A stretch of 64,000 bases of DNA from Phycisphaeraceae bacterium (GTDB lineage: Bacteria > Planctomycetota > Phycisphaerae > Phycisphaerales > Phycisphaeraceae). Position 1 is the stretch's first letter; every line of letters begins with the position of its first letter. The stretch lies in assembly GCA_963674705.1 (NCBI GenBank), contig OY771506.1, forward strand, positions 4,256,001 through 4,320,000, written 5' to 3'. The position numbers were made by a program. Positions 21,001 to 36,000 of the stretch are shown piece after piece.

Positions 21001-24000
21001 GTCGGCGACGGCTCGCTCATCGGCATGGGGGCCGTCCTCCTCGGCTCATCCGTCGTCGGCAAAAACTGCCTCATCGCCGCACGGGCACTCGTCACCGAAG
21101 GCGCCGTCATCCCCGACAACAGCGTCGTCATGGGCATCCCCGGCAAGGTTGTCCGGCAAGTGACTGACGATCAGATCAAGATGATGCACGAAAACACCGC
21201 GCATTACATAGAGCTGGCAAAGCACCATCATGAGAATCCGGAAGATAAAAAATGCCGGAAGTGGGGGGAGGGAAGCCATTAGCTGCTAGCCGTTAGCAAA
21301 TACAATTTGCTATAAGATTGAACATCGAACATCCAAACCACCCGGCCCTTCGCTTCGCTCAGAACCGGCGTTGGAATCAAAGAAATCTGACTAGTCCCCA
21401 GACCCCAGACCCAAGAACCCATGCATTTATTCCCCGCTATTGATATCCGTAATAACCAGGTCGTTCGTCTCACACAGGGCGACTATGACCGTCAGACCAC
21501 GTACGAAGCCGATCCGGTTGAGCAGGCCAAACGTTTTGAAGATGCCGGCGCAACCTGGCTACACATGGTCGACCTCGATGGCGCACGTACGGGCAAACTC
21601 ACGCACGCGCCGCTGTTTGAGAAGATCTGCTCGCAAACCAGCCTGAAAGTCGAGGTCGGTGGGGGGGTGCGGTCCGAATCCGTCATCGACACCCTGCTGA
21701 ACGTCGGCATTACAAGAGTCGTCGTCGGGACCGCCGCACTTAAAAACTGGTCGTGGTTCGAAGCGCTGATGGGTAACCCGACCTACCGCGGCAAACTCGT
21801 CCTCGGGCTAGACGCCAAGCAAGGCAAGGTCACCACCGACGGCTGGGAACAGACCTCCGAACAAACCGCGCTCGACATCGCCAAACAGGTCACCGACTGG
21901 CCGCTGGCCGCGATCGTCTACACCGACATCGCCACCGATGGCACACTCAAGGGCCCGAACGTCGAAGCCACCCGCCAGATCGCCGAAGCCACCCACGTCC
22001 CCGTCGTCGCCTCCGGCGGCGTCGGCACCCTAGACGACCTCCGCGCTTTGCGTGAACTTCCCATCCAAGGCGCGATCGTAGGCAAAGCACTCTATGAAGA
22101 TGCGTTTACGATTGATGAAGCGATTAAGGCATTCGAGAAGTAGGGGAGCTGGCGTGATTCTGTAATGTTCATAATCCGAGCCGCCGTGCCCACACGGCGG
22201 TCCGCGTCGGGGGCGACGCGGCTCTGATGAACTTTTCACAACGAACCACTACCATGTAATCCATGCCCGACCCACACACACAAGACGACAATCCCTTACA
22301 AGGAAGGCTACTTCGACTGGCAGGTCACCACACTGCTGCTTGCCTACGACCTGGTCGATCCCATCCCCGGCGACAAACCCGAACTGGCACAAGACCGACG
22401 GATGAAAACCGAGCAGGAAGTCCGCGACCTTTCACTGGCTGTCGTACCCGAAAAATACAAAGCCGACCCAACCCTCGACTGGCCGCCGGACGTAATGATG
22501 GCGATCACACGTGCGACTTTCAATCGCGTCAATGAAATCACAATTCCCTGACCCATTGAACCCCCCACCACATTCGGTTTATCGGACTTTCAGCCATTAT
22601 CTATTCAATCACGCAAAGGCGGATACTTCATGTGATTGCGGATACAAATTCTGGCCACATAACGTTCGCCCAATCGAGACGCCGCAAACAACAGGCCAGC
22701 GATAGTTGTATATATGATGATCTGCAATTGCTGGAAGCTGAACCAATTTGTTGACTCAAATAGTGAAACAGCAAAGATCAGGCATCCTATGATGAACCCA
22801 AGGATACTGATGTAGTATCCACACACGATTAAATGCATCAAAAGCACAAGCCCAATCCCCAAACCGCCACGAAACCGGACATAGGCCTTATAGACAAACA
22901 AAAGCCAGACCAATTGACAAGCCAGGCTGAACGCCAGGATGATATACGTACTGGCATCATGCCTCGCGTCTGACGGTGCGAATAGAAGCCAGGCCAACCA
23001 TAGGAATGCGATCGGCGAAGTGACTCCCGGAATACTTAACATGAGCAGCCCCGGAGCCCGGTACCAAGGCCGGTCCCATTGCCTAGCCGCCAAATCAGGC
23101 ACATCGATTACCAGACCACATTCCGGACACTCAACGACCGGCCCCAGCAAACCGCGCAGATTGTATTCACATCCCGGGCAGGCAATATCCATATCAACAA
23201 CATGCCCGTAATCAGGCTTGTCGGTTATCTCTGATTCATACGAAGAAGCGAGACATGGCACCCCGTAAGCTCTTTAGAGGGCCGAACCTGGGCTCTGGAA
23301 GCCCGCCTGTCTTGAGTTATACATAACATATATTATCGGACTGAAATGCTGGCAGGGCGTTCGCAAACCCTTAACCACCCGCTAGTTGCCTAACAAGCGG
23401 GCCAGCCGATAATTTAGGCTCTTTTGAACTTTCGTCAAGCTGAAGGGTTTCGATGATGCCGAACACCTGATCTATCGGCACATAACCCGCCGCCGGATGA
23501 TTCGGCGGCTTCAATTCGTCCAGCTTGCCCGCGATGATCCAATTTGAAATGGTCGTCTTCGAGCAATGCAACAACCTCGCGGCCTCGGCTTGTGTCATTA
23601 CGCCGCCCGGATATTTGCGGATGATTTGCCGCCACCAAAAATACTTCACCATGTCCGGCATTTCGTTCGACATATGATCGGCCCGCCGTGATGTGTCCGT
23701 TAGGGTTATACCTAGCGGCCCCCAGAATATCGGACAATGCCTTCCCGTCAACATCCAACGGCCGATCGACCGGCAACGGCCCACGCTCCGGCATCGCTCC
23801 CGGGTCCGGCTGCACGACTTCACCGCCGCCCGGCTCAGGGTCACCGACTTGCACTTCAATATCGGTTGTACTCTTGTACGTGCCCTTGCCCGTCACACCC
23901 GGCGTCACCTCACAGCCCGCCAGCACGACACAACCGACCAACGCCCACGCGGTCAACAACAACGCAACTACAACACTAAAACGCTTCATCCGATCACCTC

Positions 24001-33000: not shown

Positions 33001-36000
33001 GAAAACGTCTGCTATCCATAGCAAAACCACCAGACCGCTTATAACGGTCGGACAGCTTTCAATGTGTCCAAAAGCAGGGTATTATCACCCTGCCGGATCG
33101 TTCCTGTCACAGAACTTTCTGTCCGGCCGGTCCCGAAGGTGCGGTAAACCTTGCGGGACATTTTGATTTTAACGGTTATTCAATTTTCATAAGTCCTTGT
33201 CCTAGCATATATTATCGGGCCTTGGGGTAGGTCGGCAGGGGGGTTGCGGGTTGGGAAACCTGCGGTTGATATGCCACTACGTATGCCTTAACGAGGGTAT
33301 TCACACTTCTACACGATCCAGGCTGGTACGGACTTGTTCGGCAAGAACGGTGACGTGGGCTGTGTCGAATATCTCCAGATGTCCGCCGGGGATTGAATAC
33401 GTGTGGATATTGCTTCTCACCAACCCGCGCCAGCCATTGTCATCAGCGACAGACACAAAACGCATCCAATCAGGTTTCTCAATCGATTCAAACAGGTGCA
33501 GATCACCTTCATAGTATCCCGGCCTATAGGATTCGCGGGCCCGGCGTGATGCAACTCTCAGCTTAGATAAGGCTTCGGTTATCTGGCCGTTGCCTTGCGG
33601 TATGGAAACTTCATCTTCCAGCCACATGCCGGCATCTTCATCACGTGAATTGCTATTCACTTCAGATGATAAACCAAACCTCTGACGCACCTTTTCCATA
33701 GCGATGGCGGGTGTCAGTTCACTCAAATGAATCCACAACCGCTGTGTGAACGGCTTAGGACGAACAGCACCCGGTGCAGATGTATCTAATAAACCTAAAT
33801 AGGGCACATCTCCGCCCTGCTGCTTGATCTGGCAGGCGATCTCGTATGCGACCAGACCGCCGAATGAATAGCCGATCAGCGATACTGGACCGTCCGGCTG
33901 AATGTGGCGAATCCGGCGAAGCAGTTCCGCGGCCAGATCAGGAATATTGTCGCAAGGTTGTTCGGCTTCGTGCAGACCCGGGAACTGCAGGCCGTAGATC
34001 GATCGATCGTCACCGATCAATTCAGCCAAACCACGATAACTGAACGGCGTACCGCCCCGCCCGGGTAAACAAAAAAGTGGGGGTTTACCGTCACCATGCT
34101 TCAAGCAATATACGCCGCGATCCTGCGTGTCCGTCCCTTCACCCTGTAGCCATCCCGCCATTTGTCGGATGGTCGGTGATCCATAGAAAGACGACAATGG
34201 AAGCGATCGATCCAGAATGCGTTCAACTTCCAGCACTGTCTGCACCGCGAGCAGCGAATCACCACCCAGATCAAAAAAGCTATCAGTGACACCAACCTCA
34301 ACCAAACCTAGTAGTTTCTGCCAGATAGCTGCGAGCTTCTTTTCAAGATCGGTTTGGGGCGGGATGAACTCGACGCCGGTATCGATACGATCGAGGTCCG
34401 GCTCGGGCAGGCTTTTGCGTTCGGTCTTGCCGTTCGGCGTTAACGGCATCTTCTCGATACGAACAAACGTATTAGGCACCATAAAGCTGGGCAGCTTCTG
34501 ACGCATTTCTGCACGCAGCGCATGAATGCTCGGGCCTGGCTGCTCCTTCGGGATGATGTAGCCGATCAGACGCATGTCGCCGTGCCTGTTGGGCTTGGCG
34601 GTGACCGCGGCCTCACGCACACCTGAGCATTTACCAAGCACTGTTTCCACCTCAAGCATCTCGACGCGGTTACCCCGGATCTTGACCTGTTGATCCTTTC
34701 GGCCTCGATGGACCAGCATGCCCTGCCCATTGAATTCACCAAGATCGCCGGTGAGAAATACACGTGCCTCGGGATCGTCCGGATCGGGCCTCAGAACTTG
34801 TTGCGTCAGTTCAAGCCGGCCCAGATAACCGCGCATGATGTATCGGCTGCTGATATGGATGTTACCGATCACACCCCGCTCGACCGGCCGGCCCTCATCA
34901 TCAACGATGCGTACATCAACACCCGGGAACGCGTAACCGGATGGGATATTGGAGCCTTCTTCCAAAGGCGTGTCTTCGGTGATGTTGTAATGGCAGGACA
35001 TGCCAGTTTCCGTAGCACCGAGCCCACCTAGCAGCTGACAGTTTTTACTGAAGTGTGTTCTGAATAGCTCGACATCATTGCGGGTCGAGGCCTCGCCACC
35101 GAACTTGACCATCCGGATCTCGGGGAACAGGTTCTCGCCCTTCAGTTCCCGGGCAAAATGCCTGAAGATCGTGACGATCGAACAGTAGATCGTAATGCGT
35201 TTTTGTATCAGCCAATCGGGCAATCCCAACGTGCCGGCTTCCTTGACCGGGTAATGACACAGCGCCATGCCGTTTAACGTTGCGTTGAAAACATCGCGCA
35301 TCCCGCCGTAGACGCTGCAGGGATAAAGCAGGGTGGCCCGATCCTGTTCGGTGAGTTTCATCCAGGGTACATGGCGGAGCATGTTATGCATGACCGCGCG
35401 TTGCTCCATCATCACGCCCTTGGGTTTGCCCGTTGACCCCGAGGTGTAGAGCACGTACGCCAGTCTGCCCGGGTTGATATCCAAATCCGGATTCGTTTCA
35501 TCTGCTGCGCCGCCGGGTAGGTCGATATTCAACACCGGTATACGATCGCCCACGATCTGCCGGGCCATCGCTTCACGGCGGTTGTTAGTCAAAACAATCC
35601 TGGTGCCGCAATCTTCGAGCATCGTAGCGATGCGCTCGGCCGGATAGTTGGGGTCCAACGGCACATAGGCCCGCCCCGCCTTGAGTGCTGCATAAATCGC
35701 CGTCGTCAAAGGCAATCCCTGATCGACAAGCGTCGCAGCAAATTGGTCCTGCTGAGACGGTTCACCGAGTTGATTCAACAACGCATTAGCGCTGATATTC
35801 GCCAAGGCATTGAGTTCGCCGTAGGTCGTCACCCGTCCTGCACTATCCATCGCGGTCCGGTCAGCGAACTTGCGCACCTGCTCTTCAAACCGCTGGGCGA
35901 GTGAGCATTCGGCTGGATTGGAGGAATCATACATATGTACAGACTTCCACTAACCCCCCGCGTCGCCAACACTGATGAGGCAGCAACATTTTACCACAGA

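What a model noticed while it worked through the whole genome (the two positions that open the first line are those of the whole stretch)
23320..33225. dif-integrated double-jelly-roll (tailless, lipid-containing) provirus of Phycisphaerae
A 9.9-kb insertion of 14 called genes without any Pfam match encodes a double-jelly-roll major capsid protein (g03535), an A32/FtsK-type packaging ATPase that the caller cut to 82 aa (true frame 4284765-4285283), a rolling-circle Rep (g03539) and small membrane proteins, but no integrase, and is bounded by a dif-like site near the replication terminus. It is a complete temperate tailless virus that borrows the host XerCD, one of a Phycisphaeraceae virus family. 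It would be the first Varidnaviria lineage of Planctomycetota and names their dif site.
Evidence so far: Model from 71 homologs pLDDT 94; Foldseek best hits STIV MCP (E 4e-16, TM 0.75) and PRD1 P3. ATPase with Walker A, Walker B and RGRH motif. The 93%-identical G004 has an empty site; left and right junctions share the core GCATATATTATCGG/ACATATATTATCGG, and the left one reads as a XerD arm + 6-7 nt + XerC arm, conserved in G004 and G010. GC skew peaks at about 4.06-4.25 Mb; host XerC and XerD are present. Capsid homologs with the same ATPase-capsid-membrane gene order in 4 of 16 family genomes, three copies in one, none in 384 other genomes of the class; 165 clusters at E<=1e-3. No match among 50,697 GenBank phages. 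Paper searches showed no planctomycete DJR virus.
(Added by a program. Inside this text positions count along the whole contig: contig position 4,256,001 is position 1 of the stretch shown here. "Call 12" and the like, gene names such as g00115 and contig names such as C1 are that model's own, and its searches are not shown. The text may have been shortened before it was handed on; [...] marks where a part breaks off. The agent that wrote the report below was given it as the finding of a first reader that could run no searches.)

Follow-up and report, generated by a model that had tools for sequence, protein, structure and literature searches.

The report
Tailless virus parked at planctomycete dif
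A 9.9-kb virus genome sits at the chromosome's replication end in a planctomycete bacterium; it pairs a capsid like that of an archaeal hot-spring virus with the packaging motor of marine Vibrio viruses, has no integrase of its own and likely borrows the host's chromosome-untangling enzymes to get in and out, which also reveals the host's likely dif site.

The parts
23315..23343 (+). attL = regenerated dif: host XerD-type arm 23,315-23,326, 6-bp core 23,327-23,332, virus-derived XerC-type arm 23,333-23,343
   Evidence: pattern in 58 of 101 family genomes, reversed-pattern control 0; at KOPS switch. Arm naming rests on recalled dif consensus and on PMC12715192.
23406..23412 (+). Inverted copy of the inner XerC arm (CCGATAA), 79 nt from the core; could fold back CTX-like but is not conserved
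23371..23673 (-). 100-aa HTH protein next to attP; excisionase-like; candidate directionality or Xer-activating factor (inferred)
   Evidence: Pfam HTH_17 E 1e-5, below cut-off; TIGR01764 E 3.7e-5, below cut-off; same position in G084, G063 element 2 and G072; no match to PM2 DUF3653 protein
23435..23989 (-). 184-aa ORF with signal peptide and lipobox-like LAGC, overlapping the HTH gene; likely lysis lipoprotein (inferred)
   Evidence: lipobox-like ORFs at the same place in relatives
23994..24608 (-). 204-aa protein whose N-terminal ~110 aa align with the spike-position proteins of relatives; likely vertex protein (inferred)
   Evidence: alignment 'pent'; no significant hit to known pentons
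24605..25555 (-). ~310-aa protein of unknown fold with an N-terminal hydrophobic segment; candidate receptor-binding protein (inferred from position; start uncertain)
   Evidence: no Pfam, PHROG or Atlas hit
25482..25811 (-). 109-aa single-domain paralogue of the 204-aa N-terminus; likely penton (inferred)
   Evidence: tblastn to relatives E 4e-6 to 5e-3; alignment; Atlas leads only
25812..26282 (-). 156-aa C-terminally anchored membrane protein, weakly PM2 P10-like
   Evidence: Hits in 6 of 8 relative regions; hhalign PM2 P10 prob 35%, 1.249.A gp16 13%
26282..26566 (-). 94-aa membrane protein with basic tail, weakly P8-like
   Evidence: prob 7%
26567..26983 (-). 138-aa membrane protein
   Evidence: Hydrophobicity and position
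26988..27440 (-). 150-aa membrane protein right after the MCP, P3-position
   Evidence: Profile hits 1.249.A gp12 at 25 bits, hhalign 32%
27516..28520 (-). [quoted passage not shown]
28568..28690 (-). 40-aa membrane protein between ATPase and MCP with a good ribosome site; PM2 P7 position
   Evidence: position described in PMC9502842
28765..29280 (-). A32/FtsK-type packaging ATPase, 171 aa, closest to autolykiviruses
   Evidence: Pox_A32 E 0.0014; 6 Vibrio phages at 34-38%; profile 172.7 bits to 1.249.A, 41.5 to PM2 P9, 23.8 to STIV B164
29204..30040 (-). 278-aa Gp-h/PRD1-P10-like membrane assembly factor, overlapping the ATPase start
   Evidence: hhalign 94% to 1.249.A gp07, 77% to PM2 Gp-h; control 0.07%
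30107..31708 (-). Rolling-circle initiator of the Rep_trans fold, 533 aa
   Evidence: Model of residues 51-398, pLDDT 93.7; Foldseek 4cij E 1e-9, RepDE 4cwc E 2.8e-9; plasmid 'replication initiation factor' hits E 1e-18
31315..31344 (+). Protospacer: 30 of 30 bases match spacer 18 of 24 in the G103 type II array
   Evidence: E 2e-12; Cas9 and Cas1 next to the array
31634..31660 (-). G6/C6 hairpin in the 5' part of rep; predicted double-strand origin
   Evidence: In 6 of 6 provirus reps, in different reading frames; in 20 of 36 metagenome rep loci
31705..31920 (-). 71-aa Cys-rich zinc-finger-like protein
   Evidence: homologue in G063 element 3
31884..32738 (-). 284-aa early-region protein with N-terminal zinc-finger-like part
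32735..33019 (-). 94-aa early-region protein, no match
33194..33222 (+). attR: virus-derived degenerate XerD arm (8 of 12 bases off), core 33,206-33,211, host XerC-type arm

Best explanation
This is the integrated genome of a tailless double-jelly-roll virus, likely temperate and membrane-containing, that sits at the host's predicted dif site and likely uses host XerCD for integration and excision. Shown: insertion, bounds, empty site, capsid fold, ATPase motifs, Rep fold, no recombinase, site at the KOPS switch, spacer in a sister genome. Inferred: a circular double-stranded form carries a half-degenerate dif (intact XerC arm, 6-bp core equal to the host's, XerD arm 8 of 12 off); XerCD recombine it with dif and rebuild a working dif on the left. 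Equal cores would keep the reaction reversible, unlike CTX phage. The HTH protein beside attP would steer direction or activate Xer. After excision, Rep would nick the hairpin in its own gene and copy the circle by rolling-circle replication; Gp-h, ATPase and the small membrane proteins would build a PM2-like lipid vesicle under a STIV-type shell. Which recombinase cuts first (XerD-first as TLC, or XerC-first then replication) is open, about even.
For: Empty site and arm origin. dif pattern in 58 of 101 family genomes, single in 55, control 0; 33 of 201 phylum genomes at 2 mismatches versus 7 control hits. KOPS switch 4,277,264-4,290,720; data-driven octamer switch 4,289,234. XerC/XerD. 7 DJR elements have both ends at dif: 4 with a degenerate XerD arm (G000, G084, G063 element 2, G098) and 3 with a degenerate XerC arm (G063 element 1, G072, G608); cores equal at both ends in 9 of 10 elements tested. 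Two inovirus-like elements use the same site. TLC attP also has 8 deviating XerD-arm bases (PMC9226527, introduction). Fold and module evidence. CRISPR spacer. A 9,824-bp contig length is given for both a 77% capsid homologue and a 74% Rep homologue, close to the 9,879-bp unit; I could not read that contig.
Against: No joint across attR-attL and flat depth in the contigs of 4 runs from one study (contigs cannot show absence). No XafT/DUF3653 match. No endolysin recognised. The window's ORF list lacks the GNAT-position ORF and the short membrane ORF seen before the HTH gene in several relatives. Penton and spike assignments are not significant. Xer binding was not tested; 43 of 101 family genomes lacked the pattern at 1 mismatch. 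A second Rep homologue elsewhere in G000 and 42 of 43 metagenome Rep loci without a capsid hit show that the Rep alone does not mark this virus.
Confidence: 0.85

Rival explanations
1. The element is a real DJR provirus but is now defective (cannot excise or lyse).
For: No circular junction or raised depth; no endolysin found; GNAT-position and holin-position ORFs of relatives not seen, lipoprotein ORF runs on over the HTH gene.
Against: MCP, ATPase, Gp-h and Rep are full length with no stops; both att sites and the origin hairpin are intact; 9,879 bp is within the 9.8-11.2 kb of relatives; a perfect spacer in G103 means a near-identical virus was met recently. Verrucomicrobial Vinavirales also lack known lysins (PMC9502842).
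Confidence: 0.25
2. It integrates like CTX phage, as a folded single strand from rolling-circle replication, using the inverted XerC arm 79 nt from the core.
For: Exact inverted CCGATAA pairs with the XerC arm in the best fold of the plus strand; Rep_trans replication makes single strands (recalled).
Against: z only -1.24 at attL; mean long-range pairing of the arm 0.38 and 0.28; the XerD side does not pair; the other three type-A elements have no exact inverted arm (one has a 1-mismatch copy); cores match the host, which CTX does not need.
Confidence: 0.1
3. The 28-mer is only a phage attachment hotspot and not the host's dif; integration uses another host tyrosine recombinase.
For: G000 has other tyrosine recombinase loci; the site is ~216 kb from the GC-skew peak; Kono 2011 found no dif in its one planctomycete.
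Against: Arm-core-arm layout with conserved arms and variable core, single copy across the family, KOPS converging within 2 kb; a related integrase-type element uses tRNA-Ala instead.
Confidence: 0.05
4. The jelly-roll gene is a cellular DUF2961-type enzyme on a plasmid-like island, not a capsid.
For: Planctomycetes carry DUF2961 DJR homologues (PMC8812541 passage).
Confidence: 0.01

Closest known systems
dif-type DJR prophages of Vibrio (PM2/NO16-like; Ma and Zhang 2025, PMC12715192, parts 1-2 of 7 read)
   Same: Integrase-less DJR prophages at dif with full, left-armed or right-armed attP; integrase-type sisters at other sites; the site shared with inoviruses.
   Different: Host is Phycisphaerae, not Gammaproteobacteria; capsid is 334-aa STIV-type, not PM2 P2-type (78 versus 12 bits); no DUF3653/XafT or P15/P16 module detected; about 10-11 kb versus 12.9 kb.
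[quoted passage not shown] 2018, PMC5894146, section read; figure and pptx supplements not readable)
   Same: STIV-related MCP in bacteria, with PVC-group, Nitrospirae and Proteobacteria labels in the tree legend; variable replication genes.
   Different: That paper describes ATPases highly similar to STIV's and many genomes with integrases; here the ATPase is far closer to autolykiviruses (173 versus 24 bits) and most elements use dif. The words Planctomyc and Phycisphaer do not occur in its main text or two readable supplements.
Autolykiviridae (Livvievirus 1.249.A) and Vinavirales (PM2)
   Same: Gene order Gp-h, ATPase, small membrane protein, MCP, membrane proteins, (GNAT position), P10-like, vertex, lysis; ATPase 38% identical; about 10 kb; rolling-circle Rep as in many Vinavirales.
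   Different: Capsid is not of the ~270-aa PM2 type; autolykiviruses are lytic with a family B DNA polymerase; no P5 endolysin or P15/P16 found.
TLC phage of Vibrio cholerae (PMC9226527, introduction and passages read)
   Same: attP with intact XerC arm and 8 deviating XerD-arm bases; a new dif is rebuilt on integration.
   Different: TLC is a capsid-less satellite that needs XafT; no XafT homologue was detected here.
Turriviridae (STIV)
   Same: Closest solved capsid by sequence and rmsd.
   Different: Archaeal host, own integrase, 17.7 kb; no significant match of the other structural profiles to 8 STIV ORFs tested.

Membership tests
Varidnaviria / Bamfordvirae | [quoted passage not shown] | tested here: met
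Varidnaviria / Bamfordvirae | A32/FtsK-like packaging ATPase | tested here: met
Varidnaviria / Bamfordvirae | Single-jelly-roll penton | tested here: inconclusive
   Conserved ~110-aa domain at the spike position, no significant match; not folded
Varidnaviria / Bamfordvirae | Icosahedral particle with internal membrane and dsDNA | not testable with these tools
   Only membrane-protein predictions
Vinavirales | PM2 P2-type MCP | tested here: not met
Vinavirales | Gp-h homologue upstream of a Vinavirales-type ATPase | tested here: met
   hhalign 94% and 77%; ATPase 100% and 97%
Vinavirales | P7, P3, P8, P10, GNAT structural genes | tested here: inconclusive
   Positions fit; probabilities 0.4-35%; GNAT-position ORF only in relatives
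Vinavirales | Endolysin and P14/P15/P16 regulators | tested here: inconclusive
   No Pfam or PHROG hit; HTH profile versus PM2 orf a and c under 2%
Turriviridae (Belfryvirales) | STIV-like MCP | tested here: met
   E 4e-21
Turriviridae (Belfryvirales) | STIV-like ATPase, archaeal host, own integrase | tested here: not met
   ATPase 23.8 bits to B164 versus 172.7 to autolykivirus; bacterial host; no integrase
IMEX (integrative mobile elements exploiting Xer) | No own recombinase | tested here: met
IMEX (integrative mobile elements exploiting Xer) | dif-like attP, insertion at chromosomal dif with dif rebuilt | tested here: met
IMEX (integrative mobile elements exploiting Xer) | Integration depends on XerC/XerD | not testable with these tools
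   Genes present; dependence needs genetics
CTX-type (ssDNA hairpin) IMEX | Conserved fold-back attP with both arms paired | tested here: not met
TLC-type IMEX | XafT activator | tested here: inconclusive
   No DUF3653 hit; an HTH protein of unknown role sits at attP
Rep_trans rolling-circle initiators | RepSTK1/RepD fold | tested here: met
   Foldseek top 6 hits, E 1e-9 to 1e-8, TM 0.40-0.44 by query length; Pfam Rep_trans only 1 of 6 members at E 0.047

The most novel reading that the evidence does not exclude
An undescribed family, possibly order-level, of temperate bacterial viruses that joins an archaeal-turrivirus-type capsid to a Vinavirales-type membrane and packaging module. It infects Phycisphaerae, hijacks the planctomycete dif through either arm without XafT, using a new HTH-type Xer activator, and is the first DJR lineage tied to Planctomycetota.
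Probability: 0.4. Interest if true: 0.75.

Novelty: new variant of a known kind. Interest (0 to 1): 0.6.

Why it matters
It ties a large unnamed capsid group (1,042 clusters at E<=0.001) to a host lineage and a life cycle. The mix of a STIV-type shell and an autolykivirus-type motor bears on how bacterial and archaeal tailless viruses are related, a point still argued (PMC8328091 passages). It gives a dif consensus for Phycisphaerae, where the 2011 survey found none in its one planctomycete genome, in bacteria that divide without FtsZ (recalled). It shows Xer hijacking outside Proteobacteria by both DJR viruses and inoviruses, and offers a small integrase-free attachment site for a group with few genetic tools. 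Tailless prophages like this are invisible to Pfam-based annotation.

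Full report
What is there. 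The stretch between two copies of CATATATTATCGG (core at 23,327 and 33,206) is 9,879 bp, 56.1% GC against 56.6% for the genome, with all listed genes on the minus strand. G103, a complete genome of the same genus, joins the two flanks (84-93% identical) over one 28-mer. Its XerC-side arm continues as in attR and differs from attL, so attL's XerC arm came with the virus. None of 16 ORFs scanned reaches a Pfam cut-off, and host XerC, XerD and a relative's integrase find nothing in six frames.

The site is very likely dif. The pattern ARTTATACATAA-N6-TTATCGG is found at 1 mismatch in 58 of 101 family genomes, once in 55 of them, with 0 hits for the reversed control. At 2 mismatches it is in 33 of 201 phylum genomes against 7 control hits. 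Named records with the exact site are labelled Phycisphaeraceae, Planctomycetota/Planctomycetes, Poriferisphaera or unclassified bacterium (13 loci). GC skew peaks 216 kb away, but KOPS polarity flips between 4,277,264 and 4,290,720, and 30 octamers chosen from outside the region flip at 4,289,234; the element spans 4,279,315-4,289,222. XerC and XerD pass their NCBIfam cut-offs. Kono et al. 2011 predicted no dif in their one planctomycete (passages).

The rest of the virion module points elsewhere. The ATPase hits 6 Vibrio phages at 34-38%, the best an autolykivirus; its profile scores 172.7 bits on that virus, 41.5 on PM2 P9 and 23.8 on STIV B164. The overlapping upstream ORF matches autolykivirus gp07 (94%) and PM2 Gp-h (77%). 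A 40-aa membrane ORF sits in the P7 position; the ORFs after the MCP match P3-, P8- and P10-position proteins only weakly. This is the Vinavirales order described by Yutin 2022 (section read), around a non-Vinavirales capsid. So it works like PM2 in assembly but is a member of neither Vinavirales nor Turriviridae by the tests above.

Replication. The Rep core folds like RepSTK1 and RepDE. A G6/C6 hairpin in its 5' part is kept in 6 of 6 provirus reps although the reading frame over it differs, and in 20 of 36 metagenome rep loci. A DNA-level signal inside rep fits a pT181-type nick site (recalled; inferred). G072, G098, G063 element 3 and G608 gave no tblastn hit to this Rep, so the replication gene is swapped among relatives.

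Relatives and their sites. 6 of 143 other family genomes carry the capsid, one with three copies. In a class sample, 4 of 384 genomes outside the family hit; G608 and G805 are solid, with ATPase beside the capsid, and G640 and G758 are marginal and were not counted. That makes 12 loci in 9 genomes. Seven have both ends at dif: four keep the XerC arm and lose the XerD arm (window, G084, G063 element 2, G098), three do the reverse (G063 element 1, G072, G608). Two show one end of the second kind (G090, G805:C55). G006 lies in tRNA-Ala between 44-bp repeats with its own integrase. Two are unresolved. In G063 one element of each kind flanks a single dif. Inovirus-like elements use the same site in both ways (G016, L052). 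The five GTDB loci found with the ATPase alignment are all in records named Phycisphaerae, Phycisphaerales, Planctomycetes or Poriferisphaera.

Activity. G103 has a Cas9/Cas1 array of 24 spacers; spacer 18 matches rep at 30 of 30 bases. This shows a recent encounter with a near-identical virus. Against this, contigs of four runs from one study show no circular junction and flat depth, no endolysin is recognised, and two ORFs common in relatives are not seen. I put the chance that this copy is defective at about one in four.

Mechanism. The rebuilt attP has the host core and an XerD arm 8 of 12 bases off, as in TLC phage (introduction of PMC9226527). Cores are equal at both junctions in 9 of 10 elements, which would allow a full, reversible exchange. 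A CTX-like fold-back is possible in the window alone and is rejected as the general rule. No XafT was found; the HTH gene next to attP in 4 elements is the candidate helper. XerCD dependence itself is inferred.

What is known. dif-type and integrase-type DJR prophages with left- or right-armed attP are described in Vibrio (PMC12715192, parts 1-2; PMC11630473 passages). Bacterial STIV-group capsids, with a PVC-group label, are in Yutin 2018 (section); its figure and pptx supplements could not be read and may hold a planctomycete. DJR hosts in Verrucomicrobia and Omnitrophica (PMC8041624 passages) are also on record. Seven searches listed no planctomycete DJR virus; the library lacks most subscription papers.

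Verdict. Real, well bounded and well supported. The integration trick is known; the host, the dif site, the use of either arm in one host family and the capsid/motor mosaic are new in what I could search. New variant of a known kind, interest 0.6.

Noticed in passing
L037:4059-12080 (G016): 8.0-kb inovirus-like element (G2P-type Rep, Zot-like pI ATPase) at dif with an intact XerD arm and degenerate XerC arm.
   Followed up: partly
L052:1640-10025: 8.4-kb inovirus-like element (Zot-like ATPase, secretin-like ORF, a different Rep; labels from my reading of the ORFs) at dif with a degenerate XerD arm.
   Followed up: partly
L013:14242-16115 (G072): 1.8-kb stretch between dif and a core+XerC-arm repeat, carrying host-like genes; may be a captured or leftover Xer cassette.
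   Followed up: no
L010:5130-15830 (G063 element 3): Third DJR copy far from dif; one end has a dif-like sequence with a 5-bp spacer inside a long palindrome, the other a partial arm. Site not resolved.
   Followed up: partly
L014:13782-14879 (G006): Integrase ORF is in frame with an upstream membrane segment that is a separate holin-position ORF in G072.
   Followed up: no
L017:2639 and 12871 (G098): The only element whose two cores differ (one base), which could mark the strand-exchange point.
   Followed up: no
G000 contig 2,130,490-2,131,362: A second, distant homologue of the Rep (26% identity, E 1e-25) elsewhere in the genome.
   Followed up: no
G052 and G091: Two dif-pattern matches each; no DJR gene was found by tblastn next to the three sites fetched.
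   Followed up: partly
window 33,301-35,934: Stand-alone 877-aa NRPS-like gene (A-PCP-thioesterase) and an O-methyltransferase-like ORF directly right of attR; also present in G103.
   Followed up: no
window 31,624-31,658: Short contigs in all four runs match only the rep hairpin and then run on into other sequence; could be spacers or other replicons with the same origin.
   Followed up: no
G000 whole contig: Replichores are uneven: skew minimum at 0.94 Mb and dif at 4.28 Mb (about 60:40), with mixed KOPS polarity at 1.25-2.0 Mb, suggesting an inversion or assembly issue.
   Followed up: no
P0002/P0163; P0044 cluster: Homologues on contigs of 9,824 bp and about 10.5 kb, near unit length; possible free virus genomes that could not be fetched.
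   Followed up: no
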